From an uncultured Enterobacteriaceae bacterium (GTDB lineage Bacteria > Desulfobacterota > Binatia > Bin18), in contig CAZBUD010000001.1 of NCBI GenBank assembly GCA_964495015.1, forward strand, positions 69,357-133,356: a DNA stretch of 64,000 bases, written 5' to 3'. Within the stretch, counting starts at the first letter, position 1. Every line of letters begins with the position of its first letter. Below the pieces are notes generated by a model. That model was not told where the DNA came from. It did no database searches and was given only the letters and a program-made list of their open reading frames with translations. This document shows, piece by piece, positions 17,631-59,486 of this stretch. A program made the position numbers and the translations under genes.

Positions 17631-17633
17631 CAC

Positions 17634-17966: not shown

Positions 17967-17969
17967 TTC

Positions 17970-27095: not shown

Positions 27096-28088
27096 ATGGC
27101 TCGTATTGGTCTCGCCCTGGCCGGTGGTATGTCTCCCACAGATATTGTTGACTGCGTAAAACATGCTGAAGAGCTGGGTTATGAATCTGCCTGGTTTGCA
27201 GAAGGCCACGGCGGAGATCAATTCTGTATTCTGACAGCGTGCGCGTTGGCAACACATCGTATTCTACTAGGGACCAGTATTAGCAGCATTTTCGTGCGTA
27301 GTGCGCCCACCATTGCCATGGCAGCTGCGTGTGTTGATTACTATTCTCAGCAGCGTCTCATTTTGGGCCTGGGCTCGAGCCACAAAGTCCAGGTTGAACC
27401 GGAACATAGCATCCCCTATGGCCAGCCTGTACAGCGCATGCGGGAAACCGTTGAAATTATCCGCACGCTGCTGCGCGAAGGAGAGGTATCGTATCAGGGA
27501 GAAGTCCTCACGATTGAACATTTCGACCTCTGGTTTCAACCTGCCCGCAAAGAGATTCCGATCTATCTTTCGGCCGTTTTTCCTCAGATGCTGCAAACCT
27601 GCGGTGAGATCGCACAGGGTACCATTCTGGTCTGGAGTGCGCCTGAAGTAGGAAAACTCGCAGCTGAAAACCTTAAGATCGGCGCCCAACGAGCGGGACG
27701 TCGTGTGGAAGATATCGACATTGTCTCGCTTCTACCAATGAGTGTTTCCGAAGACCGTAAGGAGGCAATGGCGCGAATACGCCCGATTATCGCTTTCTAC
27801 GGTGGATTCTTTCCTCGCTACAATCGCTCAATGGCTGAGCAAGGGTTTCCTGATGAAGCGCACGCGATCCGGGAAGCCTGGAAGCAAGGTGATAAGGAAA
27901 AGGCGATCCAACTTGTGCCGGATGCCCTGATTGAGACTCTCAGTATTGTTGGGAAGCCGGCTGAATGCCGAGAGCGTGTGGAATCCTATCGCTATTCAGG
28001 CATAGGGCATCCGGTTATTTTTCCGGTGAGTGACGGGCCTACGGGGAAACAGCATGTCCTGGAGGCAGTCCAGGCGTGTGCTCCCTAA
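27096..28088 (+). CDS. LLM-class F420/flavin-dependent oxidoreductase
   Basis: 330-aa ORF preceded by the RBS AAGGAGA. Motifs LGYESAWFAEGHGGD, RLILGLGSS and IPIYLSA. Confidence 0.85.
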   Translation: MARIGLALAGGMSPTDIVDCVKHAEELGYESAWFAEGHGGDQFCILTACALATHRILLGTSISSIFVRSAPTIAMAAACVDYYSQQRLILGLGSSHKVQVEPEHSIPYGQPVQRMRETVEIIRTLLREGEVSYQGEVLTIEHFDLWFQPARKEIPIYLSAVFPQMLQTCGEIAQGTILVWSAPEVGKLAAENLKIGAQRAGRRVEDIDIVSLLPMSVSEDRKEAMARIRPIIAFYGGFFPRYNRSMAEQGFPDEAHAIREAWKQGDKEKAIQLVPDALIETLSIVGKPAECRERVESYRYSGIGHPVIFPVSDGPTGKQHVLEAVQACAP

Positions 28089-29379: not shown

Positions 29380-29973
29380 ATGGTCGACAATAAAATTTTG
29401 CATATTCGTGATCGGCTTTCCAATCACAGCCCAGCTCCGGTTGATATTGAATCACCCACACGCGCTGCAGTCGCGCTGCTCCTTCAACCACAGACTGATG
29501 ACTTGCACGTTCTCTTCATCCATCGCGCCCACCATCCACAAGACCCATGGTCTGGACACATGGCTTTTCCGGGAGGCCGACATGAGCCAGAGGATCCAGA
29601 CCTGTTCGTCACAATCGAGCGTGAGACACACGAAGAAGTCGGAATCAATCTCAATGCTCAGGGCGAATATCTCGGTCGTCTGGCTGAGGTGCAAGCCATG
29701 GCTCGTGGGAAAAATACGGGCATGGCCGTTGCCCCTTTTGTCTATCTCGTGTCTGGGGAAGCGACCCCTATCCCTGATCCAGTTGAGGTACAAGATACTA
29801 TTTGGGTGCCGCTGTCGTTTATGCAGCAAGAAGATGTTGAACAGATCGTGCAACGGGATCTTCCAGACGGATCAACGATTCAAGTCCCAGCTTTGCTCTA
29901 TGGCGGAAAAACTATCTGGGGCCTAACCTACCGCATGCTGCGGGGATTTTTGGAACTCATTAACGAGTCGTGA
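29380..29973 (+). CDS. NUDIX hydrolase, CoA pyrophosphatase-like
   Basis: 197 aa. It has the Nudix box GGRHEPEDPDLFVTIERETHEEVGI, preceded by the PWSGHMAFPGG motif typical of the NudL/CoA pyrophosphatase subgroup. Confidence 0.8.
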   Translation: MVDNKILHIRDRLSNHSPAPVDIESPTRAAVALLLQPQTDDLHVLFIHRAHHPQDPWSGHMAFPGGRHEPEDPDLFVTIERETHEEVGINLNAQGEYLGRLAEVQAMARGKNTGMAVAPFVYLVSGEATPIPDPVEVQDTIWVPLSFMQQEDVEQIVQRDLPDGSTIQVPALLYGGKTIWGLTYRMLRGFLELINES

Positions 29974-29987
29974 GGGGAGGACGTGCG

Positions 29988-30344
29988 ATGCAGCAGCTCA
30001 AGAAAAGATCTGAAGAAATCGAAGAAGCGCTTATCCCAAAACCCACAGCTGCACAAAAGCCTCACTTCGTCCGTTGTAAAATTATCGGCCCTGATGGGAA
30101 AAAGCGGCCCGGTTGGGAGATGTGGCTGGGCGAGCACTGCTTTGGTCGTTCAGACTGCAAAGAGTCACTGGTCGAGAGTCTTGAACGCCAGCTGCAACCG
30201 CCCCAGTCCTTTCACTGGCGGGAAGTCCATCGGCAGCGGTTTGAGCGCGCCCGCATAGAAAAGACCCAGGACAAGAGCGGTCAGAGAGACCCGCTAGCCC
30301 TTCCTACAGCACCTCGTGTAAAAACTCTTGTACCACGTCGGTAA
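29988..30344 (+). CDS. hypothetical basic protein
   Basis: ATG 29988 has the RBS GAGGGGAGGA, immediately after the NUDIX stop. 118 aa with no motif. Its 3' end overlaps the convergent hydrolase gene by ~40 nt. Confidence 0.35.
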   Translation: MQQLKKRSEEIEEALIPKPTAAQKPHFVRCKIIGPDGKKRPGWEMWLGEHCFGRSDCKESLVESLERQLQPPQSFHWREVHRQRFERARIEKTQDKSGQRDPLALPTAPRVKTLVPRR

Positions 30345-31131
30345 ACCCGTCCGGATTATCCAGCATCACATGATGATGCGTGTCGGGCACCTCTGCCCAG
30401 CGACTATCTGGTAAGCCCGCGCACATGCGCTCAAGTTTCTGAGGGGTGAGTATCGGGCTGTGCTGGGCTTTCACAATGAGTGTGGGGCAGGCAATTCGGG
30501 CCAACAAAGGCCAACCGTTGATAGGCTCGCGAAAGAGTGTCCGCCGATCAAACTTAGACGTCCATTTCCCGTCAGATCTCTCTTTAAAAGCAAAAGAGGC
30601 GAGATAGCGCAGCTTATCAACTGAGACTAAAGACTCACGGGGAAATAGGCGAAAACGGGCTATGGCTTGCTGAGAAGAGTCAAACACTTTGGCCGGCTTA
30701 TCGCCCATTCGACGCAGCAATGTGACAGCGGCCTCAGGATAGCCTGGTTCGATATCCACCAAGATCAAGGCGCTGAGTTCATCAGCATGTTGCGCGGCAT
30801 AAATTAGCGTGTTGTGCCCACCCATCGAGTGCCCTAAGAGGCCGTGACGGCCGATCCCTAGGGTTTGGACAAGCTGCTGCAGATCGTCAATGTAATGCCG
30901 GGTACTATAGGCTGGCGCTTCTGCATGTTGACTCTCACCGTGCCCGCGCCAATCCGGAGTAATGACGTGAAAGTCTTTGGCGAAGACGGGAGCAATAAAA
31001 TCCCACCAGCGAGCGTGGGCCGAGCCACCGTGACACAGGATCAATGGGGGTTTGCCTGCCGTGCCCCAATCGAGATGATGCAGGCGCAGGTCGTTGATAG
31101 TTACGAAATGGGACTGGGGCTGGGGCATCAC
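30304..31131 (-). CDS. alpha/beta-fold hydrolase
   Basis: 275 aa. Motifs ILCHGGSAHARWW and the nucleophile elbow GHSMGG. It is the last gene of the Mo-hydroxylase supercluster. Confidence 0.85.
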   Translation of the reverse strand: MMPQPQSHFVTINDLRLHHLDWGTAGKPPLILCHGGSAHARWWDFIAPVFAKDFHVITPDWRGHGESQHAEAPAYSTRHYIDDLQQLVQTLGIGRHGLLGHSMGGHNTLIYAAQHADELSALILVDIEPGYPEAAVTLLRRMGDKPAKVFDSSQQAIARFRLFPRESLVSVDKLRYLASFAFKERSDGKWTSKFDRRTLFREPINGWPLLARIACPTLIVKAQHSPILTPQKLERMCAGLPDSRWAEVPDTHHHVMLDNPDGFTDVVQEFLHEVL

Positions 31132-31178
31132 TTCTCAATGAAAACATATGGAAGGGCGAGGGAACCTCGTCCCTGCGG

Positions 31179-33473
31179 TTATATTCTCTTCTTGTCCAGA
31201 ATTGCTTTGGCCACTTTAGCCGGCGACATGGGAAGTTCGGTCATGCGTACCCCCGTCGCGCGGTAGATGGCGTTTGCAATCGCTGCAGGTGGCGGGATGA
31301 TCGGTACTTCGCCTACGCCACGAATCCCGATTGGATGACCGGGGTTAGCGACTTCAACCAAGATGGTTTCGATCATAGGTAGATCAAGACACGTCGGCAT
31401 ACGGTAATCCAGAAAACCCGTGTTGCATAGCGTGCCGTCCTCGGCGTAGTAGTACTCTTCATTCAGCGCCCAGCCAACTCCTTGAGCTACGCCGCCCTGA
31501 ATCTGGCCTTCCACATAACTAGGGTGAACGGCTTTACCCACATCTTGCGCTGCAGTGTAGCGCAAGATGTCGACTTTCCCGGTTTCGGGATCGACTTCTA
31601 CATCCACGACGTGCGCTGCAAAGGCCGGACCAACACCACGCGGACGGACAGACGCCCGGCCCATGACGGGTCCTCCGGCTCGTGGAAACTTTGGCGCAAG
31701 CTCTTTTAACCCCATGGACTCATGCCCGTTACTCGTACACGACACCCTGCCATCCTGGTATATAATCTCTTCGGGTTTGACCTTCCAAATAATCGCCGCC
31801 CGCTGCTTGAGTTGATCGATGGCATCTTGGGCGGCTTGGTATACAGCAAAGCCTGTCGCAAAGGTCACCCGACTGCCACCCGTCGTATCCGTATGACCGA
31901 TAGATTCCGTATCCGCGACAACGGGATGGATTTCTTCTGCCCTCAGTCCCAACACTTCCGCTGCAATCATGGCACACGATACACGACTGCCACCAATATC
32001 GGGCGAGCCAGTGACAACGTTAGCCGTTCCATCGGTATTAATACTCACGGTCGCGCTGGACTGAAATGCGGCATTAAACCAAAAGCCGGAAGCTACCCCC
32101 CGGCCGCAGAGTTTCCCATTTTCGGCTCGCGGCAGCGGCGACTCATAGTGTGCGCTGTTCTTGATCGCCTCAATGGTTTCGAGATAGCCGATCCGTTTGA
32201 ATTTGGGCCCTGCGGGTTGGGCCGTTCCTTCTTGGGCTCCATTAATACGTCGGAGTTCCAGCGGATCAATATTGAGGTTTTCCGCGATTTCATCAATAAC
32301 GGTTTCCGCAGCCATGGCCGGGTTCGTAGCGCCAGGCGCACGATAGGCACACGTCTTGGGCTTATTGAGCACCACGTCGTAGCCGTCGACCAGGAAGTTC
32401 TCCAAGTCGTACGGAGCAAGGACGGTCATACAGCCAGCGGCAACAGGCGAGCCAGGAAACGCGCCTGCTTCAAACGACAGCTGCAGTTCGGCAGCGGTGA
32501 TTTTGCCATCAGCATTCGCCCCAATTTTGACCCGAATATGCGATCCTGGCGTCGGACCAGTGGCGCGTAGAACTTCACTTCTGGACATAACCATTCTGAC
32601 CGGACGACTTGTTATCTTGGACATAAGCAGCGCCAGAGGCTCCAAATAGACAGTCGTCTTACCGCCAAAACCACCGCCAATCTCGGCTGGCACGACTTTG
32701 ATATCGCCCGGCTTTATGTGTAGCATCGAGCCGCACAATTCACGCACGGCAAACGGCCCCTGGGTACTGACCCAGACCGTAGCTCGACCGTCTTGATTGT
32801 ACTGGGCAAGCGCATTATGCGGCTCGATATAGCCCTGGTGAACCATCGTCGTACGAAACTCACGCTCGATTACGACCTCGGCAGCTGCAAAGCCGGTTTC
32901 GAGCTCACCCCGAGAAAACTGGACGTGATTCGCGATATTGGTCTCTTCATCACTGCCTTTATCGACCCCGCCTGTCCGTAAGTCGGCATGCAGGATGACA
33001 GCATCGTCCTGCATGGCCTCAAGGACGTTTTGCACAAAGGGTAGTGGTTCATACTCCACCTTGATGCGCTTCAATGCCTCATCGGCAATATGCGGGCTTG
33101 TTGCCGCGACTGCTGCGACCGCGTGTCCATCGTACAAGACCTTATCCCGGGCCATGATATTAAACGCTAAGTGGCGCGGATTGACAAAATTCTCACCTAT
33201 TTGCAGCATGCCAGGTGCAATATCGGGGAAGTCGGCTCCGGTAATGACACCTTTGACACCTGGTAGGGCTTTAGCCGCAGACGTATCAATAGATTTGATA
33301 AACGCGTGCGCATGGGGACTGCGTAACACTTTTCCGTGCAACAGTCCGGGCAGCGTAATATCCGCGCCATATCTAGCTCTGCCTGTGACCTTATCAACGC
33401 CGTCATGCCGAATCGGACGGGTTCCGATTACTTTGAATTGATGCTCCGGTTGATGCTTTTGGTCCGACTCCAT
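31179..33473 (-). CDS. Mo-hydroxylase large subunit, paralogue L2
   Basis: The start is chosen at ATG 33473 (RBS AGGAGAGGAAG). Motifs FKVIGTRPIRHDGVDKVTGRARYGAD, AEIGGGFGGK, AYRAPGATN and IRGVGEVPIIPPPAAIANAI. It is ~70% identical by eye to L1 (33959..36229). Confidence 0.9.
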   Translation of the reverse strand: MESDQKHQPEHQFKVIGTRPIRHDGVDKVTGRARYGADITLPGLLHGKVLRSPHAHAFIKSIDTSAAKALPGVKGVITGADFPDIAPGMLQIGENFVNPRHLAFNIMARDKVLYDGHAVAAVAATSPHIADEALKRIKVEYEPLPFVQNVLEAMQDDAVILHADLRTGGVDKGSDEETNIANHVQFSRGELETGFAAAEVVIEREFRTTMVHQGYIEPHNALAQYNQDGRATVWVSTQGPFAVRELCGSMLHIKPGDIKVVPAEIGGGFGGKTTVYLEPLALLMSKITSRPVRMVMSRSEVLRATGPTPGSHIRVKIGANADGKITAAELQLSFEAGAFPGSPVAAGCMTVLAPYDLENFLVDGYDVVLNKPKTCAYRAPGATNPAMAAETVIDEIAENLNIDPLELRRINGAQEGTAQPAGPKFKRIGYLETIEAIKNSAHYESPLPRAENGKLCGRGVASGFWFNAAFQSSATVSINTDGTANVVTGSPDIGGSRVSCAMIAAEVLGLRAEEIHPVVADTESIGHTDTTGGSRVTFATGFAVYQAAQDAIDQLKQRAAIIWKVKPEEIIYQDGRVSCTSNGHESMGLKELAPKFPRAGGPVMGRASVRPRGVGPAFAAHVVDVEVDPETGKVDILRYTAAQDVGKAVHPSYVEGQIQGGVAQGVGWALNEEYYYAEDGTLCNTGFLDYRMPTCLDLPMIETILVEVANPGHPIGIRGVGEVPIIPPPAAIANAIYRATGVRMTELPMSPAKVAKAILDKKRI

Positions 33474-33524
33474 ACTTCCTCTCCTACACAAAAACGGGGA
33501 AGAGTACTGTCTACCCTTCCCCGT

Positions 33525-33812
33525 TCAACCGTCATCATTACTTCGTTCGCATCCGCCCCCGATGGCTGGCACAAAATGGATTTCGCTTTCAGCCGGGACG
33601 GACTCGTGTAACCCTTCGGTACTAATTTCTCCGTTGACAGATACCGCAATGGAGCCGGTCAGGTCGCCGTTCTCGATAACACGGTCACGAAAACCAGGAA
33701 ATTGGCGTTCGAGGTCTTCAATAATTTCTCTCACCGTTGCTCCGAGCGCGTCTGTCCGATCTCTTCCACCGGTCAGTTTGCGCAGAAGTGAGGGAATAAA
33801 GACAGTTGCCAT
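33525..33812 (-). CDS. MoaD/ThiS/CysO-type beta-grasp sulfur-carrier-like protein with a C-terminal extension after Gly-Gly
   Basis: I place the start at ATG 33812, because the longer track ORF runs through a REP hairpin. MATVFIPSLLRKLTGGRDRTDALGATVREIIEDLERQFPGF..RVIENGDL..SIAVSVNGE......GL.ESVPAESEIHFVPAIGGG follows the CysO/MoaD pattern, and is followed by CERSNDDG before the stop. Confidence 0.8.
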   Translation of the reverse strand: MATVFIPSLLRKLTGGRDRTDALGATVREIIEDLERQFPGFRDRVIENGDLTGSIAVSVNGEISTEGLHESVPAESEIHFVPAIGGGCERSNDDG

Positions 33813-33925
33813 AGCAGTACCTAAAGGTTCTGGCTCTCTCCTTCCCCGCATATGCATATAAGGAAAGGTTGAGATGAATGGACCAATCTGATTTGAGATC
33901 TCGCAGACACCCCCCCCCACCCTTG

Positions 33926-33948
33926 CCCTCTCCCACAAGGGGAGAGGG
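33926..33948. repeat. REP-like GC hairpin (ccctctccc-acaag-gggagaggg), preceded by a C9 homopolymer (33910-33918)
   Basis: Read directly. It lies in the 146-nt spacer between the L1 stop (33959) and the moaD-like start (33812). Confidence 0.55.
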
Positions 33949-33958
33949 GATTTCTGGT

Positions 33959-36229
33959 TTACCCGTTTTTCTCCAAGATCGCCTTACACAGCCGGGGTGG
34001 CGACATCGGCAGATCGGCCATGCGGACCCCGGTCGCGCTGTAGATCGCGTTAGCGATAGCTGCAGGCGGGGGGATGATAGGCACCTCGCCCACACCGCGT
34101 ACGCCAACCGGATGGCCCGGGTTGGGCACCTCGACCAGCACGGTTTCAATCATGGGCAGGTCCAGGCAGGTCGGCATCCGATAGTCCAGAAAGCCCGCGT
34201 TCTGCATTCTGCCGTCATCACCGTAGACGTATTCTTCGTTGAGCGCCCAACCGATGCCTTGGGCCACACCGCCCTGCATCTGGCCTTCAACATAGCTCGG
34301 ATGAATAGCAGTACCAACATCCTGGACTGCAGTGTAGCGTAGAATATCGACCTTGCCGGTCTCCTCATCAACCGCGACATCCACCACATGGGTGGCAAAG
34401 GCGGGACCAACGCCACGCGGGTTGACCGACGCCCGGCCCGTGACTGGCCCGCCCGTACGCGGCAGTTTGCCCGAGAGTTCTTTGAGAGTCATCGACTCGT
34501 TGCCATTAGCCGTGCAGGTGAATACGCCGTCCTGAAACGTGACTTTATCGGCTTCGACTTTCCAAGACTTCGCAGCACGCTCTTTCAGTTGACTGAGCAC
34601 ATCCTGAGCCGCTTCGTATACCGCAGTCCCGGTGGCAAAGGTCACCCGGCTGCCGCCGGTCATATCGGTATGACCAATGGACTCGGTATCCGCCACAACG
34701 GGGTGAACTTCTTCTGCAGTCAGTCCCAAGACCTCAGCCGCAATCATGGCGCACGACGTCCGCGTGCCACCAATATCGGTCGAACCGGTTACCACATTGG
34801 CCGTGCCATCGCTATTAATCGCTACAGTCGCGCTCGACTGAAAACCGGCGTTGAACCAAAAACCCGATGCCACACCACGCCCAACCCGCCGGCCTTCGAC
34901 CTTGGGCAACTCGGATTTAAAGTGGTCACTGGTCTTAGCCGCCTCAACAGTTTCGAGATAGCCGATCTGTCCAAATTTTGGGCCGGCCGGTTGGGCCGTG
35001 CCCTCTTTAGCCCCATTGATGCGCCGGAATTGAAGCGGATCTATGCCGAGCTTTTCCGCTAGCTCGTCAATAACGGTCTCTGAGCCCATGGACGCATTGG
35101 TTGACCCTGGAGCCCTGTATGCTGCTGTCTTGGGCTTATTGACCAACACGTCATAGCCGTCGATCTTGAGGTTCTCAATGTCATACGGGGTAATAACCGT
35201 CATACAGCCGGCGCCAACCGGGGAGCCCGGGAACCCGCCCGCTTCATACGCCATCCAGACTTCGGCAGCCGTAATTTTTCCGTCCTTATCCGCGCCCATC
35301 TTCACCTTGATATGTGAGCCCGGAGTCGGCCCGGTGGCTTTAAGCACCTCAGCCCGGCTCATGACCATCTTGACCGGCTTGCCTGTTTTTTTTGATAGAA
35401 TCAAGGAAATAGGTTCAAAGTAGACTGGAATCTTGCCGCCAAACCCACCACCGATTTCGGCCGGAATGACCTTAATTTTACTTGCCGGCATGTCAAGAAC
35501 CATGGCCGTTTGATCACGGGCCGTAAACGCACCCTGAGTGCTCACCCAAATCGTGCTTTGCCCGTCCGAACTGTATTGGGCCACCGAGTTATGAGGCTCG
35601 ATATAGCCCTGGTGGACCATGGAGGTATCAAATTCGCGCTCAACGACGACCTCAGCCGCGGCAAACCCGGCAGCAAGATCGCCGCGCTCGAACTGAACAT
35701 GGTTGGCAACATTGGTGTCTTTTGGTTCCCCCTCGTTCCCTTTTCCTAATCCAGGTAAGAGAATGGGGGCATCATCATTCATGGCTTCCATAACGTTCTG
35801 CACATGTGGCAGCACTTCATAGTCAACCTTGATCAGTTTGAGTGCTTCCTCAGCAATATGCGGGCTCGTCGCTGCAACCGCAGCCACAACATGGCCGTCG
35901 TAGACGACCTTGTCCCGGGCGATACAGTTCAAAGACATATGTTGCGGGTTGACCGGCAGCTCACCCATTTGGGCCATACCCGGTTCAATATTCGGCAAAT
36001 CTTGAGCAGTAACCACAGCCTTCACCCCAGGCAGAGCCTCGGCAGCTGAGGTATCGATTGATTTAATATTGGCGTGGGCATGTGGGCTGCGCAGGGTTTT
36101 ACCATGCAGGAGGCCCGCCAGATCGATATCGGCCCCGTACTGCGCCCGACCTGTGACCTTATCAGCGCCGTCGTGTCGAATCGGACGCGTCCCAATGACC
36201 TTAAACTTGTGTTCTTGCTGCGCTGCCAT
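33959..36229 (-). CDS. Mo-hydroxylase large subunit, paralogue L1
   Basis: 756 aa. Its ATG lies 2 nt after the S-subunit stop, with the RBS GGGAGG. Motifs FKVIGTRPIRHDGADKVTGRAQYGAD, AEIGGGFGGK, AYRAPGSTN and VRGVGEVPIIPPPAAIANAI. Confidence 0.9.
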   Translation of the reverse strand: MAAQQEHKFKVIGTRPIRHDGADKVTGRAQYGADIDLAGLLHGKTLRSPHAHANIKSIDTSAAEALPGVKAVVTAQDLPNIEPGMAQMGELPVNPQHMSLNCIARDKVVYDGHVVAAVAATSPHIAEEALKLIKVDYEVLPHVQNVMEAMNDDAPILLPGLGKGNEGEPKDTNVANHVQFERGDLAAGFAAAEVVVEREFDTSMVHQGYIEPHNSVAQYSSDGQSTIWVSTQGAFTARDQTAMVLDMPASKIKVIPAEIGGGFGGKIPVYFEPISLILSKKTGKPVKMVMSRAEVLKATGPTPGSHIKVKMGADKDGKITAAEVWMAYEAGGFPGSPVGAGCMTVITPYDIENLKIDGYDVLVNKPKTAAYRAPGSTNASMGSETVIDELAEKLGIDPLQFRRINGAKEGTAQPAGPKFGQIGYLETVEAAKTSDHFKSELPKVEGRRVGRGVASGFWFNAGFQSSATVAINSDGTANVVTGSTDIGGTRTSCAMIAAEVLGLTAEEVHPVVADTESIGHTDMTGGSRVTFATGTAVYEAAQDVLSQLKERAAKSWKVEADKVTFQDGVFTCTANGNESMTLKELSGKLPRTGGPVTGRASVNPRGVGPAFATHVVDVAVDEETGKVDILRYTAVQDVGTAIHPSYVEGQMQGGVAQGIGWALNEEYVYGDDGRMQNAGFLDYRMPTCLDLPMIETVLVEVPNPGHPVGVRGVGEVPIIPPPAAIANAIYSATGVRMADLPMSPPRLCKAILEKNG

Positions 36230-36231
36230 GA

Positions 36232-36708
36232 TTACCTCCCTTGCATTTCAGAAGCGGCATCCTGGACCGCTCTCACAATTTTGTCATAGCCTGTGCAGCG
36301 GCAGAGATTGCCGGCCAGGGCGTAACGTATTTCGTGTTCGGTTGGATTGGGATTACGGTCGAGCAGCGCCTTGGACGTGACCAGAAAGCCAGGCGTGCAG
36401 ATCCCGCACTGGAGCGCCGCATGCTCGAGAAATTTCTTTTGCAGCGGATGCAGCGTATCTCCATCAGCCAACCCTTCCACGGTCGTAATCTCTTTGCCTT
36501 CCGCCTCAACACCAAGTACGAGACACGAGTCGGCGGGCCGTCCGTCCATAATGACGCTACATGCGCCACAGTCACCCGTCAGACAGCCTTCTTTTGTGCC
36601 CGTATACCCGACGACGTCACGCAGCACTTCGAGCAAACTCTGACGTGGTTCACACAAAAACTCGGTCTCTTCTCCGTTTAAAGTCATTTGAACATGTACT
36701 TTTTTCAT
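36232..36708 (-). CDS. Mo-hydroxylase small (2x[2Fe-2S]) subunit
   Basis: 158 aa. Motifs TGDCGACSVIMDG and CGICTPGF...CRCTGY. Confidence 0.9.
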   Translation of the reverse strand: MKKVHVQMTLNGEETEFLCEPRQSLLEVLRDVVGYTGTKEGCLTGDCGACSVIMDGRPADSCLVLGVEAEGKEITTVEGLADGDTLHPLQKKFLEHAALQCGICTPGFLVTSKALLDRNPNPTEHEIRYALAGNLCRCTGYDKIVRAVQDAASEMQGR

Positions 36709-36767
36709 GCTTTTCCTACCTTCCCCAAGACATCACTAGAGTATGGCTACCATGGGCGTGCGCACTA

Positions 36768-37637
36768 TCATCGTGCGCGTGCGCGTGCGGCCGCTTCCTT
36801 CAGGGTGCGCCGGGTGAGGACGCCAACCAGATGGGTCCGAAACTCTGCCGTGCCCCGCATATCATCAATGGGCGAGGCTGCTTGCTGAGCAAGTTTTGCC
36901 GCCGCAGCAATAGTCTCATCATTCAGCGGCCTGCCCACAAGGGAATCTCCCGCTTCTTTGGCAAAGAGTGGTCGTGCGGCAACCGCACCCAGACCAATGC
37001 GCGCGGCCGTACAGGTGTTCCCATCAAGGGCAACACACGAACCCACACCGACGACGGCAATATCCATTTCATTTCGGGGAATAAAGCGTTGGTAACAATC
37101 AGCAGCCTTTCCTTGCAGCGCAGGAATCCGCAGTTCTACGAGGAGTTCATTGGGTTCAAGCACCGTTTGGCCAGGAGCAGTTACAAAATCTTCAACCGGA
37201 ACCTCACGCGTACCATTGGGTCCGGCGATGTGACATACGGCGCTCAGGGCTATCAGAGCCGGTGTTGTATCTGCTGCGGGCGATCCATTACATACATTTC
37301 CGCCCACCGACGCGCGCGCGAGCACCTGATCGGAACCAATCAGTCCAGCGGCTTCTACTAGCCCGGGATATTGCTGCTGCGCGGTGGCATCTTCGATGAT
37401 CTTACAGCAGGCCAGCGAAGCTCCGAGGCGGAGTCCATTCTGGGTGTTAAAAGACAGCGTTTGGAGTTCTGGGATCTTTTTGGCGTCAATCACCTGTCCC
37501 GGTTGTCGTACACCAGCACGCATCTGGATAATCAGATCCGTGCCTCCAGCTAACAGACGCCCATTTTCACCCGCCGCCGCCAGCATGCTGATGGCCTGAT
37601 CGAGCGAAGTCGGCGCTTCATAAGTCAGTTCGTGCAA
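36768..37637 (-). CDS. Mo-hydroxylase medium (FAD-binding) subunit
   Basis: 289 aa with a TTG start and the RBS AGGAGGA. Motifs LLAGGTDLIIQMR and ASVGGNVCNGSPAADT. Confidence 0.9.
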   Translation of the reverse strand: MHELTYEAPTSLDQAISMLAAAGENGRLLAGGTDLIIQMRAGVRQPGQVIDAKKIPELQTLSFNTQNGLRLGASLACCKIIEDATAQQQYPGLVEAAGLIGSDQVLARASVGGNVCNGSPAADTTPALIALSAVCHIAGPNGTREVPVEDFVTAPGQTVLEPNELLVELRIPALQGKAADCYQRFIPRNEMDIAVVGVGSCVALDGNTCTAARIGLGAVAARPLFAKEAGDSLVGRPLNDETIAAAAKLAQQAASPIDDMRGTAEFRTHLVGVLTRRTLKEAAARARAR

Positions 37638-37762
37638 GGTCTCCTCCTTTTCCTAATAAACCGTATTGGAAAATCTATTTATCCCTTGTAGACTCCTAGA
37701 TTGCTATAGAAAAGTGCCAGGGAGTGCAAGGGTTCTTACAAGGATTATCAGTGATTCCCTTG

Positions 37763-38362
37763 CTACGTTTTTGTGGCACCCACCCACTGGGCGTACGCTT
37801 TGGGAGTATCAATATCGGCCCGGATACCTGGATCGTCGAAGCAGACTTCCCGGACGCGATTGGGGTCCTTTCGGACGACTACTTTGGCGCCTTGATCCAG
37901 CGGCGCGGCCAGAATCTCCCCATATACGAGACTGGAGAAAAGGACAGGATGTCCTCGTCGGCCTTGATACGAAGCAATAATAATGGGGAGTGGATCTGCG
38001 CGAAATGACGAGATAAGCGTTTGTATTGTCTCTGCCTTCACCAGGGGATGGTCCACCAGATTCACAACAGCCGCCTCACTTTCGGACGACAGCGCATGAA
38101 TGCCAAACATAAGCGACGATAATTGCCCAAGTCGATGGCGTGGATTCACCCTAACCTGGAGCATACGATGATCCGGCACGGCGGCGCGGATTCTCCCCTC
38201 ATGTTCATGCGCTCCGAGAACAACGATCAATTCGTCTACTCCGGCAGTCACGAAAGCATCACAGATATTCTCAATAAACGTCCGTCCCTGGTAGTCGAGT
38301 AACGCTTTGGGCGAGCCCATACGCCGCGACTCACCTGCAGCCAAGACAATTCCGGAGATCAT
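37763..38362 (-). CDS. mocA: MobA-like nucleotidyltransferase, probable molybdenum cofactor cytidylyltransferase
   Basis: 199 aa. Motif GIVLAAGESRRMGSPKALL. An ATGA overlap with the xdhC stop and the position within a Mo-hydroxylase cluster support the call. Confidence 0.75.
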   Translation of the reverse strand: MISGIVLAAGESRRMGSPKALLDYQGRTFIENICDAFVTAGVDELIVVLGAHEHEGRIRAAVPDHRMLQVRVNPRHRLGQLSSLMFGIHALSSESEAAVVNLVDHPLVKAETIQTLISSFRADPLPIIIASYQGRRGHPVLFSSLVYGEILAAPLDQGAKVVVRKDPNRVREVCFDDPGIRADIDTPKAYAQWVGATKT

Positions 38363-39540
38363 GAACGGTTGGAGCCCGTGAACTTGAGTGCCCCGCTCGG
38401 ACGAGCCTTGGCCGCCAACGAGAGCGTATCAACCGGACCGTTACGACGCGCCCGTATGAGCTCAGCAGCAATTGCAACCGCAATCTCAGCTGGTGTTTCG
38501 GCCGCAATATCAAGTCCCAAAGGCGTGTGCACCCGGCTCAGGTCTTGCGGGTTATAGCCCTGTTCAACCAGGCGTTCGAGCGTCCTCTTTGACCGGCGCC
38601 GACTCCCAATCATACCGATATAGGCCGGGTTCTTTTTGAGCACAATCTTGACCGAAACTTCATCCCATACATGTCCACGCGTCACCACAACTACCAAGGT
38701 CTGCTCTTTCATATCGAGGCTGTTTAACACGTCTTCAAACGGTCCGACTCGAATATCTGCCGCACGGGGAAAGCGTTCACGATTGGCAAAGGCCTGACGG
38801 TCGTCCACCACGACAGTATGAAAGCCCAGCATGAAACCTATTTCACATAAGGGCTGAGCAATATGTCCAGCACCAACGATGAGTAAGGTCTGAAGCCCGG
38901 TCTGGACATCTACAAAAACACGTGGCCAATCCTCCTTGCGAGCAACAGCGTCTTCGAATACTTCACCGTTTGGTGAGACGGCAAAGAGTTGTGGTTTCCC
39001 GGTAGAAAGTGACGAAGAAAAAGTTTTGACTGTTTCCTCTGCAATGGGAACATCCGGAGAGAGAGACGCGCCACTCGGGTCGAGAGACAGACAGCTTTTT
39101 GTACCGGGTAGTACATCACGGACAGAATTGAGGGCCGTCACCAAAGCCGCCGGACGACGGGCATGGGCTGCCTGTGCCAACGTATGGGCAAGTTCGCGGT
39201 GTTCATCCGGCCGCCACAGATCGAGCGCGACGTCCATCAAACCACCACAGACCTGGATTTCATCCTGGTCGAAATCGCCCGTTAGATCAACCTGAACAAT
39301 GCGTGGAGACAGATTTTGGCGTGGCGGTAGGTTTTGGTCGAGAAGCGGATAGGCTCGGCGCAGGACTTCGCCTTCACCACATCCGCCACCAATCGTTCCA
39401 AACGGCTGCCCTTCGGGCGGGACAACCATTTTTGCGCCAACTTCACGCGGGACTGACCCGCGTGTACGGATAATGGTGGCTAAAACAAACGGCTTACCGG
39501 ATGCCAAAATTTCTTCGGCACGTTCCCAGAGATCTTCCAC
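38359..39540 (-). CDS. xdhC: XdhC/CoxI-family Moco insertion/sulfuration accessory protein
   Basis: 393 aa with a GTG start. It has the N-terminal XdhC_CoxI motif (GKPFVLATIIRTRGSVPREVGAKMVV) and a C-terminal Rossmann domain (LLIVGAGHIAQPL...VVVTRGH..D). Confidence 0.85.
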   Translation of the reverse strand: MEDLWERAEEILASGKPFVLATIIRTRGSVPREVGAKMVVPPEGQPFGTIGGGCGEGEVLRRAYPLLDQNLPPRQNLSPRIVQVDLTGDFDQDEIQVCGGLMDVALDLWRPDEHRELAHTLAQAAHARRPAALVTALNSVRDVLPGTKSCLSLDPSGASLSPDVPIAEETVKTFSSSLSTGKPQLFAVSPNGEVFEDAVARKEDWPRVFVDVQTGLQTLLIVGAGHIAQPLCEIGFMLGFHTVVVDDRQAFANRERFPRAADIRVGPFEDVLNSLDMKEQTLVVVVTRGHVWDEVSVKIVLKKNPAYIGMIGSRRRSKRTLERLVEQGYNPQDLSRVHTPLGLDIAAETPAEIAVAIAAELIRARRNGPVDTLSLAAKARPSGALKFTGSNRS

Positions 39541-39637
39541 GTCACGAATCCTATCTGAATGGTGAGGGGTAAAGCAATGGAACCCTTTGTCCCTTGAAGT
39601 GAACTCTTGCTGGCTTTCTTTTCCTCACTTATGCTAC

Positions 39638-40708
39638 ATGCTGATGCAGGCCCGTTTCTTGACCCAACTCGATCTTTCTCCGGCCCAGAGCGTGGCGACC
39701 GATCAGTATTTTCTCCAAACGATAGGCAGCACGCGGACGCCGATCTTACGCCTCTATACCTATCCAGGCGATGTCGTTCTGCTTGGCCGGTATCATGCAC
39801 TCGACTCTTTCGCCGAAAACACAACGATTAGCATGACTCGCCGTCTGACTGGCGGGCGAATATTCCCCAGCGGTCACGGCTTCGTCCAATTCTCTCTGAT
39901 CCTCCCCCATCGCTCAGCTTTATTCTCTGACGATCCGTATCACCTCGCCCCGTTCCATGTTCTCAATCGCTATGTGCGCGGAGTCTTACACGGCCTTAAA
40001 ACAAACAGCGTCGAGGCCTTTTATCCCGGTCGTGATTTTCTCACTATCCATCGGCTGCCCATCGGCTGGATTTCGTTTGTGACCGAGGATAATGGTGCGC
40101 TGTTGTGCGAAGGCGGACTGTTTGTCCAACGGGATATGAGCCTGCTGCCACATTTGCTCGATCGGGTCGATCCACATGGGGCGCTGCCGTGTCAGCTCTT
40201 TATGCCAGACCAAATAGCTAATTTAGAAAAGACAAGAGGCAAGACCGTTCCCATATCGCAGGTAACGGATTTACTCCGTAGAGGTTTTGCTCAGCAGTTC
40301 GGCCAGTTTGGTTTAGAGCTGAACGATCAGAACCTCAGCGCAACTGAGCAGAAAGCCATAGAGTCTCTTACTCAGGAAAAATCGGCTGCCCGTCGGTTGG
40401 AAGAACGCTCCGTCCGATCTGATCTTTCTTGTTTTGTAACAACGGCAACCCCCCTCGGACAACTTCAAATCCGTTTCTCAGTAACTCCAGAAAACGCAAT
40501 CGTTGAAGTCCAGTTCTCAGGCGACTGTATTGCCAACCCGGCAGGTATCAGCGCACTGGAATACAATCTTCAAAAGTGTCCGCTTGAGAAAGAATCTCTT
40601 TGGAAAGTTATTGATCGTACGTTTCTTCAACCGGAGCATTATCTGCTCGGAGTCGGGACGCTGGAGACACTGCCGGATGTTATTTTGAAGGGCCTAGAGG
40701 ATCAATGA
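39638..40708 (+). CDS. lipoate/biotin protein ligase-fold (LplA-like) protein lacking the catalytic lysine
   Basis: The track ORF is 39587..40708; the first ATG is 39638 and the start is uncertain. PILRLYTYPGDVVLLGRY, RRLTGGRIFPSG and GRDFLTIHRLPIGWISF..NGALLCEGGL align by eye to LplA (RRSSGGGAVFHD; GDRKVSGSAYRE..HHGTLL), with the ligase Lys position occupied by Leu. A C-terminal LplA-like accessory domain is present. Confidence 0.65.
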   Translation: MLMQARFLTQLDLSPAQSVATDQYFLQTIGSTRTPILRLYTYPGDVVLLGRYHALDSFAENTTISMTRRLTGGRIFPSGHGFVQFSLILPHRSALFSDDPYHLAPFHVLNRYVRGVLHGLKTNSVEAFYPGRDFLTIHRLPIGWISFVTEDNGALLCEGGLFVQRDMSLLPHLLDRVDPHGALPCQLFMPDQIANLEKTRGKTVPISQVTDLLRRGFAQQFGQFGLELNDQNLSATEQKAIESLTQEKSAARRLEERSVRSDLSCFVTTATPLGQLQIRFSVTPENAIVEVQFSGDCIANPAGISALEYNLQKCPLEKESLWKVIDRTFLQPEHYLLGVGTLETLPDVILKGLEDQ

Positions 40709-41511
40709 ATCGCTCTCAAATCGCCACAGACCTTCTTTCAAACGATATCCAAATAAGTCTTTCAGCGCTCAGCGCGCTTGGAGAACAAGACCATCAGACT
40801 CCTCTTGCGCCAGATATCTGCCGCAGTCTTCTCCAGTGTCTTGGTCACAATCAGAAAAACGTTCAACGTGCTGCGGCGGCCCAACTGATCCATTTCGCCC
40901 CCGACCAGCCTGAAATCTTTACAGCCCTGACACACAGATTGTCCGATCCGGACTCGCGTGTCCGCTGGACAGCCGCATTTACCCTGTCACAGCTGGACCT
41001 GCCCGGCCCTTCTCCGTTGCCCGTACTCATTGAAAACCTCGGCCACCAGGAAAGCGACCTACGCTGGGCTGCTGCAACCGCGCTATTGCACTTAGCAGAA
41101 CAGCATCGTCACGCGGTTGTCTCGGCAATGATCCGTCTAGTCTACGCTGACAATGCCGTCCAACGTCGTATGGCCCTCTACTGTCTGCGTGATCTTGGAC
41201 AGACGGGTCACGAGGCGCAGGCAGCCTATCTAGCCAGCCTGAACGACGCAGATGCTATGGTCCGATTGGGAGGACTGTCCTGCCTCGGCAGGCTCCGGCT
41301 CACAAGTGTAACGATCTGTGAGTCCACCCTTCGGCTCTTATTAAATGATCCAGATATGGGCGTGCGGCGTTCGACTGCGGTCACACTTGGACAGATCGGA
41401 GATTCGAATCCGGCAGTCCTCGAAGCGCTGCAAACAGCTTCTCGCGGCGCTGATACTGGCCTGCGCAAAGCCGCCGTCAGAGCGCTGGTAAAATTATCGG
41501 AACGTTTATAA
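40705..41511 (+). CDS. HEAT (PBS-lyase-type) repeat protein
   Basis: 268 aa with an ATGA overlap with the upstream gene. It has repeated units such as L.D.D..VR..AA.AL (LSDPDSRVRWTAAFTL, QESDLRWAAATAL, NDADAMVRLGGLSCL, NDPDMGVRRSTAVTL, ADTGLRKAAVRAL). Confidence 0.75.
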   Translation: MNRSQIATDLLSNDIQISLSALSALGEQDHQTPLAPDICRSLLQCLGHNQKNVQRAAAAQLIHFAPDQPEIFTALTHRLSDPDSRVRWTAAFTLSQLDLPGPSPLPVLIENLGHQESDLRWAAATALLHLAEQHRHAVVSAMIRLVYADNAVQRRMALYCLRDLGQTGHEAQAAYLASLNDADAMVRLGGLSCLGRLRLTSVTICESTLRLLLNDPDMGVRRSTAVTLGQIGDSNPAVLEALQTASRGADTGLRKAAVRALVKLSERL

Positions 41512-47631: not shown

Positions 47632-48479
47632 CACCGGCCACACATTTTGCGGAACGGGAGCATCTGATCTGTACGGTCTCTCGTATTATTGAAGAGGAAA
47701 AGAGCTATTGGGTCGGTGGTGGTGGAGAGCCACTGTACAGCATTTTGCTGGCACAACGACTCTACGCCGCAGGCGTCCAGTATATGACCGAGGATGGTGT
47801 GATTGCTCCGCAATCTCTGATGCCTTTGGATCCCCTCATGACCATGGTTGCCTCTCGAGCAGGGTATCGGGCCCTACAATGGGGAACCATGAACACCGCG
47901 GGCAACTTGGCTCAACTCGGCTATGTCGATGTGGGCATTCTCAACACCCTCCAAGTTGATCGGTACGGGAATGTGAATTCCACTGTACTGGGCGAATACG
48001 AGGGTGGACAAGGCCGCCGCTTTGGAGGTCCAGGAGGGGCAGATACGATCGCGGCTCAATGTTGGCGGACGATTCTGATGACCGACCAACAAAAACGCAA
48101 ATTCGTTGATCGGGTCGATTTTATCTCCTCTCCAGGGTTTCTCGACGGTCCGGGTGCACGGGAGAAAGCAGGCCTGCCCGCAGGAACCGGCCCATGGCGC
48201 GCATTCACCCCGTGGGCCATGTTTGGCTACGAGGAGAAGTCGTGTGAACTCATGCTCATGGCTATCTCCCCGTTTGTTACTGTAGGTATGGTTCTCGAAG
48301 AAATGTCCTTTATGCCTAAGATGGCACCCAAGATCGAGACTCTTGATCCGCCGACTGAGGAAGAGCTGAAGATCATCCGTACCCAGCTTGACACCGATGG
48401 TCAAACCACCGGACGCGGACAGTGGATCGAAAAACGTGATGGACAATACGTTTTTGCCGAAACGCAGGGGCGGGAATAG
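47628..48479 (+). CDS. class I CoA-transferase subunit B
   Basis: The start is chosen at ATG 47628 (the track ORF starts earlier, at 47571, inside subunit A). Motif LQVDRYGNVNST. It pairs with subunit A. Confidence 0.85.
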   Translation: MTPATHFAEREHLICTVSRIIEEEKSYWVGGGGEPLYSILLAQRLYAAGVQYMTEDGVIAPQSLMPLDPLMTMVASRAGYRALQWGTMNTAGNLAQLGYVDVGILNTLQVDRYGNVNSTVLGEYEGGQGRRFGGPGGADTIAAQCWRTILMTDQQKRKFVDRVDFISSPGFLDGPGAREKAGLPAGTGPWRAFTPWAMFGYEEKSCELMLMAISPFVTVGMVLEEMSFMPKMAPKIETLDPPTEEELKIIRTQLDTDGQTTGRGQWIEKRDGQYVFAETQGRE

Positions 48480-59481: not shown

Positions 59482-59486
59482 GATCC

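What the first reader, a model, noticed from the sequence alone, without database searches (positions are those of the whole stretch)
30304..39540. Mo-hydroxylase supercluster: one M/S pair, two full-length paralogous catalytic subunits in tandem, dedicated xdhC and mocA-like genes, and a trailing hydrolase
Seen in the sequence: nine same-strand genes run xdhC (ATGA-coupled to) mocA-like, a 125-nt gap, M (FAD), S (2Fe-2S), L1 (2 nt after S), a 146-nt REP-containing gap, moaD/cysO-like, a 51-nt gap, L2, a 47-nt gap, then alpha/beta hydrolase. L1 (756 aa) and L2 (764 aa) are about 70% identical by eye along their whole length. Both keep GGGFGGK, AYRAPG and the C-terminal GVGEVPIIPPPAAIANAI catalytic loop. 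Established knowledge: characterised bacterial enzymes of this family are (LMS)2 with one L gene per M/S pair. MocA makes the cytidine-dinucleotide cofactor, and XdhC holds and helps sulfurate Moco before insertion. Inference: two alternative catalytic subunits may compete for a single electron-transfer module, either as isoenzymes with different substrates or as an L1-L2 heteromer. I am not aware that this arrangement has been studied. The hydrolase suggests a hydroxylate-then-hydrolyse pathway, for example for N-heterocycles or lactams, but the substrate cannot be read from the sequence.
Basis: partly seen in the sequence, partly recalled or inferred. Interest (0 to 1): 0.7.

Follow-up and report, generated by a model that had tools for sequence, protein, structure and literature searches.

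The report
Molybdenum hydroxylase cluster with spare catalytic subunit
An uncultured Binatia bacterium carries a real but fairly ordinary molybdenum-enzyme gene cluster in which a second, intact copy of the catalytic subunit sits behind a terminator and has no electron-transfer partners of its own, and whose most widely conserved extra gene is a small sulfur-carrier-like protein that has not been described for this enzyme family.

Summary
On the minus strand lie xdhC, mocA-like, M (FAD), S (2Fe-2S), L1, a MoaD/CysO-like gene, L2 and an alpha/beta hydrolase. That is eight genes, not nine. L1 and L2 are 73% identical, keep all catalytic motifs, and are both under strong purifying selection (dN/dS 0.04-0.07).

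A survey of 80 related loci changes the emphasis:
- The conserved core is M-S-L plus the MoaD-like protein, which has an invariant C-terminal Gly-Gly. It occurs across many phyla.
- xdhC/mocA and the hydrolase are linked only in the window's own lineage. The hydrolase is missing in one close relative.
- Extra L copies without extra M/S arose independently at least four times. Orphan L genes are common.

This supports, but does not prove, sharing of one M/S module by alternative catalytic subunits. Within tandem pairs the copies often differ at the residue after GGGFGGK, a substrate-contact position in xanthine oxidase.

A conserved intrinsic terminator lies between the MoaD-like gene and L2, so L2 is probably expressed less, or conditionally. 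The window's MoaD-like copy has lost its stop codon, adding 8 residues. A second, divergent M-S-L set lies 24 kb away.

The substrate is unknown. This is a new variant of a known kind, of moderate interest.

The parts
38359..39540 (-). XdhC-family Moco chaperone, 393 aa
   Evidence: Pfam XdhC_CoxI + XdhC_C. Best NCBIfam hit is NF045664, XdhC family aldehyde oxidoreductase maturation factor: 288.5 bits, below the cut-off of 350. Adjacent to the cluster only in L001, L041 and L081, with a weaker xdhC match (33%) on the opposite strand near M in L052.
37763..38362 (-). MocA-like nucleotidyltransferase, 199 aa, ATGA-overlapped with xdhC
   Evidence: Pfam NTP_transf_3. TIGR03310 MocA scores 151.9 bits, below the cut-off of 186.45. 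The overlap was read directly.
36768..37637 (-). M subunit (FAD), 289 aa, CoxM type
   Evidence: FAD_binding_5 + CO_deh_flav_C. Aligns end to end with CoxM/CutM (8uem_B, E = 2.5e-49) but only partly with 4-hydroxybenzoyl-CoA reductase beta. TTG start behind AGGAGG.
36232..36708 (-). S subunit (two 2Fe-2S domains), 158 aa
   Evidence: Pfam Fer2 + Fer2_2. 96% identical in L001 and L041.
33959..36229 (-). L1, molybdopterin-binding catalytic subunit, 756 aa
   Evidence: Ald_Xan_dh_C + MoCoBD_1 + MoCoBD_2. Best solved relative is 4-hydroxybenzoyl-CoA reductase alpha, 1rm6_A, E = 3e-103. Orthologue dN/dS is 0.04-0.06.
33904..33956 (-). GC-rich hairpin, a dispersed REP/boxC-like palindromic element inserted between L1 and the MoaD-like gene
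   Evidence: Folds at -34.7 kcal/mol, z = -3.9. Absent at this site in L001, L041 and L081. Single copy in the window. 22 exact 30-nt copies in metagenome contigs with unrelated flanks.
33525..33812 (-). MoaD/CysO-like beta-grasp protein, 95 aa: GG-terminated in relatives, here with an 8-residue extension
   Evidence: Pfam ThiS. Best solved relatives are CysO 4n6e_B and 3dwg_C. The family alignment has an invariant C-terminal GG. The stop TGA became TGC in the window. The gene follows L in 34 of 42 S-preceded L genes.
33490..33526 (-). Intrinsic-terminator-like hairpin plus U-run, starting at the MoaD-like stop codon and ending about 16 nt before the L2 start
   Evidence: 15-bp stem, -24.6 kcal/mol, z = -5.35, followed by UUUUU. 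The stem is conserved with different loops in L001, L041 and L002, and is nearly identical in L081.
31179..33473 (-). L2, paralogous catalytic subunit, 764 aa
   Evidence: Same three Pfam domains as L1. 73% identical to L1. Orthologue dN/dS is 0.04-0.07. Thr273 after GGGFGGK, where L1 has Ile267. GGAGAGG lies before the ATG.
30304..31131 (-). Alpha/beta hydrolase, 275 aa (the ATG one codon in would give 274 aa)
   Evidence: Abhydrolase_1/6. Only generic NCBIfam hits, far below cut-offs. Present in L001, L002 and L081, absent in L041.
6315..10232 (+). Separate, divergent M'-S'-L' set (context, not part of the cluster)
   Evidence: tblastn: M' 32%, S' 51% and L' 29% identical to M, S and L1. Best NCBIfam hits are CODH group 5 and glyceraldehyde dehydrogenase, below cut-offs.

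Best explanation
The cluster encodes an uncharacterised clade of aerobic-type, three-subunit molybdenum hydroxylases of the xanthine oxidase family. The clade keeps the catalytic Glu, has an AYRAPG active-site loop, and uses a CoxM-type flavoprotein. The substrate is unknown.

The ancestral unit is M-S-L plus a small MoaD/CysO-like protein ending in Gly-Gly, closed by a terminator. L2 is an old duplicate of L that was retained downstream of that terminator. It has no M or S of its own. It therefore most likely assembles with the same M and S as L1, giving a second isoenzyme (L2-M-S)2 with a somewhat different substrate pocket. It would be made at a lower or conditional level, by read-through of the terminator.

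XdhC and the MocA-like enzyme supply and insert the cytidine-dinucleotide Moco. The MoaD-like protein most likely acts as a thiocarboxylate sulfur carrier serving cofactor maturation for this enzyme, by analogy with the MoaD genes linked to tungsten aldehyde oxidoreductases.

Shown: gene content, paralogy, purifying selection, conservation of the module, recurrent L-only duplication, and the terminator hairpin. Inferred: M/S sharing, different specificity, terminator function, and the role of the MoaD-like protein.
For: - Domain content of all eight genes, with independent gene calls in L081.
- L1 and L2 are 73% identical. Synonymous divergence between them is saturated, and both are under dN/dS of 0.04-0.07.
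- Catalytic motifs are conserved in 98-99 of 99 family members.
- The M-S-L-MoaD-like order recurs across Binatia, Acidobacteriota, Latescibacterota, Dehalococcoidia, Planctomycetota, Gemmatimonadota and others. 34 of 42 S-preceded L genes are followed by the MoaD-like gene.
- The C-terminal GG is invariant in the MoaD-like family.
- Extra L copies without extra M/S occur in 14 loci, from independent duplications.
- 28 of 80 loci have an L with no M/S nearby.
- Ile267/Thr273 after GGGFGGK is a fixed difference. The same position differs within pairs in L047, L063 and L050.
- The terminator hairpin is conserved in four relatives.
- There is precedent for MoaD genes strictly adjacent to a pterin enzyme, the tungsten AOR (PMC1779556).
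Against: - No expression, assembly or activity data exist.
- Another M'S' pair lies in the same window, and more may exist in the genome, so L2 need not use the adjacent M/S.
- The terminator is predicted only, and the promoter scan is uninformative for this phylum.
- The tree pattern could also come from an older duplication followed by gene conversion.
- The window's own MoaD-like copy has a blocked GG end. Either it needs processing, or it is impaired, or there is a sequencing error.
- No E1-like (MoeB/ThiF), MoaE or JAMM gene is conserved nearby.
- The link between the residue after GGGFGGK and substrate contact rests on my knowledge of bovine xanthine oxidase Glu802, not on a structure of this enzyme.
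Confidence: 0.55

Rival explanations
1. L1 and L2 form one heteromeric enzyme, (L1-M-S)(L2-M-S), through the L-L dimer interface. Both are needed in a single complex, for example for two consecutive hydroxylations.
For: The genes are adjacent and retained together in the window, L001, L041, L081 and L002. Paralogous Arabidopsis aldehyde oxidases form active heterodimers (Akaba 1999 and Koiwai 2004, as cited in bioRxiv 10.1101/2023.09.22.559040).
Against: A conserved terminator between the MoaD-like gene and L2 predicts unequal amounts. Most family members have a single L. L002 has three L copies. Duplications are independent and placed variably, as L-D-L, L-L-D or L-D-gap-L. This fits optional add-ons better than an obligate pair.
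Confidence: 0.15
2. L2 does not share the adjacent M/S. It pairs with M/S subunits encoded elsewhere, such as M'S' at 6315..7699, or with an unidentified partner.
For: A second M'S'L' set exists in the window. Orphan L genes far from any M/S are common in this family, so assembly in trans must occur in any case.
Against: M' and S' are only 32% and 51% identical to M and S, and have their own divergent L' (29% identical to L1). L2 is 73% identical to L1, so its docking surfaces should fit the L1 partners best. L2 is kept directly downstream of M-S-L1 in five genomes.
Confidence: 0.15
3. L2 is a functionally redundant copy with the same substrate, kept for dosage or for expression under other conditions.
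For: Only 11 fixed differences separate the L1 and L2 clades, and all catalytic motifs are shared. The terminator suggests separate regulation.
Against: The divergence is old (saturated dS, 73% identity), with strong purifying selection on both copies. There is a fixed difference at the position after GGGFGGK, and also M versus T/V/G two residues before GGSR. L duplicates have been retained independently and repeatedly.
Confidence: 0.15

Closest known systems
4-Hydroxybenzoyl-CoA reductase HcrABC of Thauera aromatica (PDB 1RM6)
   Same: It is the best solved relative of L1: E = 3e-103, aligned over residues 11-751. The three-subunit architecture and the cytidine-dinucleotide Moco family are shared. 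CoA-transferases and enoyl-CoA hydratase lie in the neighbourhood.
   Different: The NCBIfam equivalog score is 487.7, against a cut-off of 994.55. M is a 289-aa CoxM-type protein that aligns only partly with the longer HcrB, which carries an extra iron-sulfur loop (plus my knowledge of HcrB). This enzyme therefore looks like an oxidising hydroxylase, not a ferredoxin-driven reductase.
Aerobic CO dehydrogenase CoxMSL/CutMSL (PDB 1N5W, 1FFV, 8UEM)
   Same: The gene order is M-S-L. M is most similar to CoxM/CutM. L aligns over its full length with CoxL.
   Different: The active-site loop is AYRAPG with Ala, not the Cys of AYRCSFR, in 99 of 99 family members. TIGR02416 scores 330 against a cut-off of 991. 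No coxD/E/F genes are adjacent.
MoaD genes strictly linked to tungsten aldehyde:ferredoxin oxidoreductase (Iyer, Burroughs and Aravind 2006, PMC1779556)
   Same: A GG-terminated MoaD-family gene sits directly next to the pterin-binding catalytic subunit across distant phyla, separate from the general Moco operon (compared).
   Different: Here the partner enzyme belongs to the xanthine oxidase family, not the AOR family. No MoeB or MoaE is linked. The protein is closest to CysO-type carriers. I found no description of this linkage.
Arabidopsis aldehyde oxidase isoenzymes AAO1/AAO2/AAO3
   Same: Paralogous catalytic polypeptides of the same enzyme family give homo- and heterodimeric isoenzymes, and compete for sulfurated Moco.
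   Different: The eukaryotic enzymes carry the Fe-S, FAD and Moco domains in one chain, so no separate electron-transfer module is shared.
XdhC / MocA maturation pair (R. capsulatus XdhC; E. coli MocA and PaoD)
   Same: XdhC_CoxI + XdhC_C domains and a MobA-like cytidylyltransferase lie next to the structural genes. The role of XdhC in sulfuration and insertion is as reviewed in PMC13653126.
   Different: Both score below the NCBIfam equivalog cut-offs. They are linked to the cluster mainly in the window's own lineage.

Membership tests
Xanthine oxidase family, three-subunit (L-M-S) molybdenum hydroxylase | L with hammerhead plus two Moco-binding domains; S with two 2Fe-2S domains; M with FAD-binding and CO_deh_flav_C domains | tested here: met
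   Pfam hits are above gathering scores for L1, L2 and M. For S, Fer2_2 and Fer2 pass, while the overlapping Fer2_3 hit does not.
Xanthine oxidase family, three-subunit (L-M-S) molybdenum hydroxylase | Catalytic glutamate near the C-terminus, and the Gln and Arg active-site motifs | tested here: met
   The Glu of GVGE aligns with the Glu of HcrA, CoxL and Qor. It is present in 98 of 99 family members, and the Arg of AYRAPG in 99 of 99.
Xanthine oxidase family, three-subunit (L-M-S) molybdenum hydroxylase | Bound Moco (MCD form) with a terminal sulfido ligand; (LMS)2 assembly | not testable with these tools
   This needs purified protein. No multimer modelling was available.
Form I aerobic CO dehydrogenase (CoxL) | Active-site loop AYRCSFR with the copper-binding Cys | tested here: not met
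   The loop is AYRAPG, with Ala at the Cys position in 99 of 99 members. TIGR02416 scores 330 against a cut-off of 991.
4-Hydroxybenzoyl-CoA reductase | Equivalog-level similarity of all three subunits, and a beta subunit with an extra Fe-S insertion | tested here: not met
   L1 scores 487.7 and L2 466.1 against a cut-off of 994.55. M scores 152.6 against 404.55, matching in two pieces. M aligns over its full length with the 287-296 aa CoxM/CutM, and only residues 114-277 align with HcrB.
Xanthine dehydrogenase proper | Glu after GGGFGGK (Glu802 of the bovine enzyme; numbering from my own knowledge) and an equivalog score | tested here: not met
   The residue is Ile in L1 and Thr in L2. XdhA models score 465 and 440 against cut-offs of 780 and 916.
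ThiS/MoaD/CysO sulfur-carrier proteins | Beta-grasp ThiS-family fold signature | tested here: met
   Pfam PF02597 scores 39.3 bits against a cut-off of 22.5. The family profile hits CysO 4n6e_B at 3.9e-18 and 3dwg_C at 1.4e-15.
ThiS/MoaD/CysO sulfur-carrier proteins | Free C-terminal Gly-Gly for adenylation and thiocarboxylate formation | tested here: inconclusive
   The GG is invariant in 53 aligned members, and most end exactly there. The window's copy carries 8 extra residues after a TGA to TGC change.
Canonical MoaD (molybdopterin synthase small subunit) | Equivalog match (TIGR01682), and a MoaE or MoeB partner | tested here: not met
   Only 10 of 53 members touch TIGR01682, and weakly. 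All match moaD_arch and SAMP1; the two scores on record (window copy 36.3 and 41.1 bits, cut-offs 49.5 and 60) are below cut-off, and per-member scores were not returned. No MoaE or MoeB family recurs in the 80 neighbourhoods or among the window ORFs scanned against Pfam or NCBIfam.
MocA (Moco cytidylyltransferase) | Equivalog score | tested here: inconclusive
   TIGR03310 is the best hit, but at 151.9 bits against a cut-off of 186.45.
REP-type dispersed palindromic element | Many copies of one imperfect palindrome in intergenic sites with unrelated flanks | tested here: inconclusive
   One copy in the window and none in 82 loci. There are 22 exact 30-nt copies in metagenome contigs with different flanks. 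Copy number in this genome is unknown.

The most novel reading that the evidence does not exclude
The GG-terminated MoaD/CysO-like protein that follows L in this clade across many phyla is a dedicated thiocarboxylate sulfur donor for maturing this enzyme's cofactor. It might even supply the terminal Mo=S ligand, in place of the cysteine desulfurase/XdhC route. In addition, this clade routinely runs several interchangeable catalytic subunits on one M/S electron-transfer module, a modular way of widening substrate range.
Probability: 0.15. Interest if true: 0.7.

Novelty: new variant of a known kind. Interest (0 to 1): 0.4.

Why it matters
Xanthine-oxidase-family hydroxylases are normally thought of as fixed L-M-S sets. 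This work identifies a large clade from uncultured soil and sediment bacteria, one that is easily mis-annotated as CO or xanthine dehydrogenase. In that clade catalytic subunits outnumber electron-transfer subunits and were duplicated on their own several times.

If sharing of M/S is real, gene counts of 'coxL-like' genes cannot be read as counts of enzymes. Substrate range could also evolve by swapping only the catalytic subunit.

The tight, cross-phylum linkage of a GG-terminated sulfur-carrier-like protein to L points to an unstudied step in maturing these enzymes. It is directly testable by heterologous expression.

Tried and rejected
- E. coli genomes: no DNA match. The window is from Candidatus Binatia.
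- Moco or other riboswitch, or any known RNA, in 29500..41000: nothing credible in Rfam.
- Sigma-70 promoter scan: no more hits than in shuffles, and none usable between the MoaD-like gene and L2.
- CO dehydrogenase, xanthine dehydrogenase and 4-hydroxybenzoyl-CoA reductase identities: rejected on motif and score grounds.
- Substrate inference from neighbours. The acyl-CoA dehydrogenase plus APH-like kinase found upstream of M in Binataceae, and the CoA-transferases in the window, hint at CoA thioesters. They are not conserved across the family, so I do not rely on them.
- Hydrolase as a pathway partner: rejected as a general feature.
- Search for a linked E1 (MoeB/ThiF), MoaE or JAMM protease: none among the window ORFs scanned or among recurrent neighbour families.
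- Literature searches for tandem L genes, or for MoaD linked to molybdenum hydroxylases: nothing relevant.
- Structure prediction was not run. Only single chains can be modelled and no coordinates are returned, so it could not test docking or channel residues.


Full report
**1. What is there**

| Gene | Coordinates | Length |
|---|---|---|
| XdhC-family chaperone | 39540..38359 | 393 aa |
| MocA-like nucleotidyltransferase | 38362..37763 | 199 aa |
| M, FAD subunit | 37637..36768 | 289 aa |
| S, 2x[2Fe-2S] subunit | 36708..36232 | 158 aa |
| L1 | 36229..33959 | 756 aa |
| ThiS/MoaD-family protein | 33812..33525 | 95 aa |
| L2 | 33473..31179 | 764 aa |
| alpha/beta hydrolase | 31131..30304 | 275 aa |

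- L1 and L2 are 73% identical over 755 residues.
- That makes eight genes, not nine.
- The organism is an uncultured Candidatus Binatia bacterium. The closest public loci are 90-91% identical in L1.
- A 164-kb ENA contig (L081) has the same eight genes in the same order, with independent gene calls.

**2. What kind of enzyme**

- L1's best solved relative is the alpha subunit of 4-hydroxybenzoyl-CoA reductase (E = 3e-103). CoxL and quinoline oxidoreductase follow.
- M is a full-length CoxM/CutM-type flavoprotein. It aligns only partly with the longer reductase beta subunit.
- All NCBIfam equivalog scores are far below their cut-offs.
- The active-site loop is AYRAPG, with Ala where CO dehydrogenase has Cys, in 99 of 99 family members. 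The catalytic Glu of GVGE is present in 98 of 99.
- The residue after GGGFGGK is Ile, Thr, Leu, Phe or Val, never the Glu of xanthine dehydrogenase. The bovine numbering is from my own knowledge.

This is therefore an uncharacterised clade of hydroxylase-type family members. It is not a CO dehydrogenase, a xanthine dehydrogenase or a benzoyl-CoA-type reductase. The substrate cannot be read from the sequence.

**3. Survey of related loci**

One genome-collection scan returned 80 loci with up to 10 kb on each side. I ran tblastn with the window's proteins and clustered all ORFs against each other.

- The only widely recurrent neighbours of L are M, S and the small MoaD-like gene.
- Of 42 L genes preceded by S with enough flank, 34 are followed by the MoaD-like gene. 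Ten more have it without S.
- The phyla include Binatia, Acidobacteriota, Latescibacterota, Dehalococcoidia, Planctomycetota, Gemmatimonadota, Poribacteria, Nitrospinota and Armatimonadota.
- Strong xdhC and mocA matches lie next to the cluster only in the window's close relatives; L052 has weaker ones near M, and four loci have distant low-identity mocA-like hits.
- The hydrolase is found only in L001, L002 and L081. It is missing in L041, where the NUDIX gene follows L2 directly.

The hydroxylate-then-hydrolyse idea therefore has little support.

**4. The second L**

- Fourteen loci have two or more L genes. The arrangements are M-S-L-D-L, M-S-L-D-L-L, M-S-L-L-D and M-S-L-D-gap-L, where D is the MoaD-like gene. 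M/S is never duplicated alongside.
- In a neighbour-joining tree, first and second copies group by lineage, not by position.
- Bootstrap values:
  - window-lineage first and second copies together, 100/100;
  - all second copies together, 0/100;
  - Binataceae second copies, 100/100;
  - the L063 pair, 99/100.
- L-only duplication therefore happened at least four times. The alternative is an older duplication homogenised by gene conversion.
- In the window lineage the duplication is old (dS about 3, saturated). Both copies are under equally strong purifying selection, with dN/dS of 0.04-0.07. The unsaturated L001-L041 pair gives 0.054 for L1 and 0.069 for L2.
- Only 11 positions are fixed differences between the L1 and L2 clades. 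One is Ile267/Thr273, directly after GGGFGGK.
- That position also differs within the pairs in L047, L063 and L050. So does the residue two before GGSR in the window lineage.
- Twenty-eight loci carry an L of this family with no M/S-like gene in the stretch held, 17 of them with the full 22 kb.

Together this makes an excess of catalytic over electron-transfer subunits a property of the clade. It makes sharing of M/S the most economical reading. It remains an inference.

**5.

(a) *A terminator before L2.* A 15-bp GC-rich stem followed by UUUUU starts at the stop codon of the MoaD-like gene and ends about 16 nt before the L2 start. Its folding energy is -24.6 kcal/mol, with z = -5.35.
- The stem is conserved with different loops in L001, L041 and L002, and is nearly identical in L081.
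- There is no room for a promoter after it.
- L2 and the hydrolase probably depend on read-through and are made at a lower or conditional level.

(b) *A lost stop codon.* In 53 aligned family members the MoaD-like protein has an invariant C-terminal Gly-Gly, and most end exactly there.
- The closest homologues, 92-95% identical, all end ...AIGGG.
- In the window the stop TGA is TGC, which adds CERSNDDG.
- This is either a recent lesion, a form that needs processing, or a sequencing error.

(c) *An inserted hairpin.* The 146-nt L1-D gap is inflated by an insertion carrying a GC-rich hairpin that is absent in L001, L041 and L081.
- It is unique in the window and absent from the 82 loci held at that point.
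- The same 30-mer occurs 22 times in metagenome contigs with unrelated flanks.
- Calling it REP-like is reasonable.

(d) *A second enzyme set.* A divergent M'-S'-L' set lies at 6315..10232 on the plus strand. L' is 29% identical to L1. The best NCBIfam hits are CODH group 5 and glyceraldehyde dehydrogenase, below cut-offs.

**6. The MoaD-like protein**

- A profile of the family hits CysO-type carriers best (4n6e_B at 3.9e-18, 3dwg_C). The Thermus MoaD-related protein, MoaD and SAMP1 follow.
- All members match the archaeal MoaD and SAMP1 models of NCBIfam; the window copy's scores (36.3 and 41.1 bits) are below the cut-offs, and per-member scores were not returned.
- Public names are generic: 'MoaD/ThiS family' or 'molybdopterin synthase sulfur carrier subunit'.
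- The invariant GG argues for adenylation and thiocarboxylate chemistry rather than a purely structural role.
- The only precedent I found is the strict linkage of MoaD genes to tungsten aldehyde:ferredoxin oxidoreductases (PMC1779556).
- A 2026 review of Moco sulfuration does not mention MoaD at all (PMC13653126).
- No E1, MoaE or JAMM gene is linked.

I consider service to cofactor maturation for this enzyme the most likely role. Donation of the Mo=S sulfur is a speculative, more novel variant.

**7. Verdict**

- The finding is real and carefully observed, apart from the gene count and the two missed features.
- The central inference, alternative catalytic subunits on one electron-transfer module, is strengthened by comparative evidence but untested.
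- The heteromer variant is less likely given the terminator and the optional, variable nature of the extra copies. Arabidopsis aldehyde oxidase heterodimers show it is possible in the family.
- No paper in the held library describes either the tandem-L arrangement or the L-linked MoaD-like gene.
- This is a new variant of a known kind. Interest is moderate (0.4), with most of the upside in the MoaD-like gene and in the modular-subunit idea.

Noticed in passing
window 6315..10232 (+): A second, divergent M'-S'-L' molybdenum hydroxylase operon. L' is 788 aa and 29% identical to L1. Its best NCBIfam hits are CODH group 5 and glyceraldehyde dehydrogenase alpha, below cut-offs. An SDR gene follows at 10263..10895 (-).
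   Followed up: partly
window 33525..33551 (-): The MoaD-like gene has lost its stop (TGA to TGC) compared with L081, L001 and L041. This adds CERSNDDG after the conserved C-terminal GGG. It may be a lesion, a processed precursor or a sequencing error.
   Followed up: yes
window 33904..33956: A GC-rich palindromic element (CCCCTCTCCCCTTGTGGGAGAGGGCAAGGG...) is inserted here but not in close relatives. Exact 30-nt copies occur 22 times in metagenome contigs from very different organisms and contexts (L083-L104). It looks like a widely dispersed REP/boxC-like element.
   Followed up: partly
L002 12686..17390: A complete Binatia chromosome (OZ246887.1) carries three L genes in a row behind one M-S pair (M-S-L-D-L-L-hydrolase), with the same terminator after the MoaD-like gene.
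   Followed up: partly
L005-L018, L030, L033, L034 and others, about 1-4 kb upstream of M: In Binataceae the M-S-L-D module is preceded by an acyl-CoA dehydrogenase and an APH-like phosphotransferase. From my own knowledge, this pair resembles the kinase/ACAD pair of 4-hydroxyacyl-CoA catabolism. It is a possible hint at a CoA-thioester substrate.
   Followed up: no
window 39587..41511 (+): An LplA-like lipoate-protein-ligase-family gene and a HEAT-repeat gene are transcribed divergently from xdhC. This pairing is conserved in L001, L041 and L081.
   Followed up: no
window 10909..11982, 21375..22397, 27096..28088, 49321..50400: Four luciferase-like monooxygenase paralogues, together with CoA-transferases (22426..23619 family III; 46660..48479 family I pair) and an enoyl-CoA hydratase (13734..14579). 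This is a dense patch of oxidative and CoA-dependent catabolic genes.
   Followed up: no
window 54497..55321 (+): A CbbQ/NorQ-type MoxR AAA+ ATPase. From my own knowledge, this is the same broad class as the CoxD maturation factor of CO dehydrogenase. It lies about 15 kb from the cluster and linkage was not examined.
   Followed up: no
window 2127..3899 (-) and 61496..63175 (-): Two SppA signal-peptide-peptidase paralogues lie near the two ends of the window. An Mrp-type antiporter cluster is at 14871..19939, and a 2-oxoacid:acceptor oxidoreductase at 58468..61346.
   Followed up: no
window 42319..43989 (-): A DUF6178 protein (556 aa, full-length match) lies next to a PEP-mutase/isocitrate-lyase-family gene (43986..44858). 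Function unknown.
   Followed up: no
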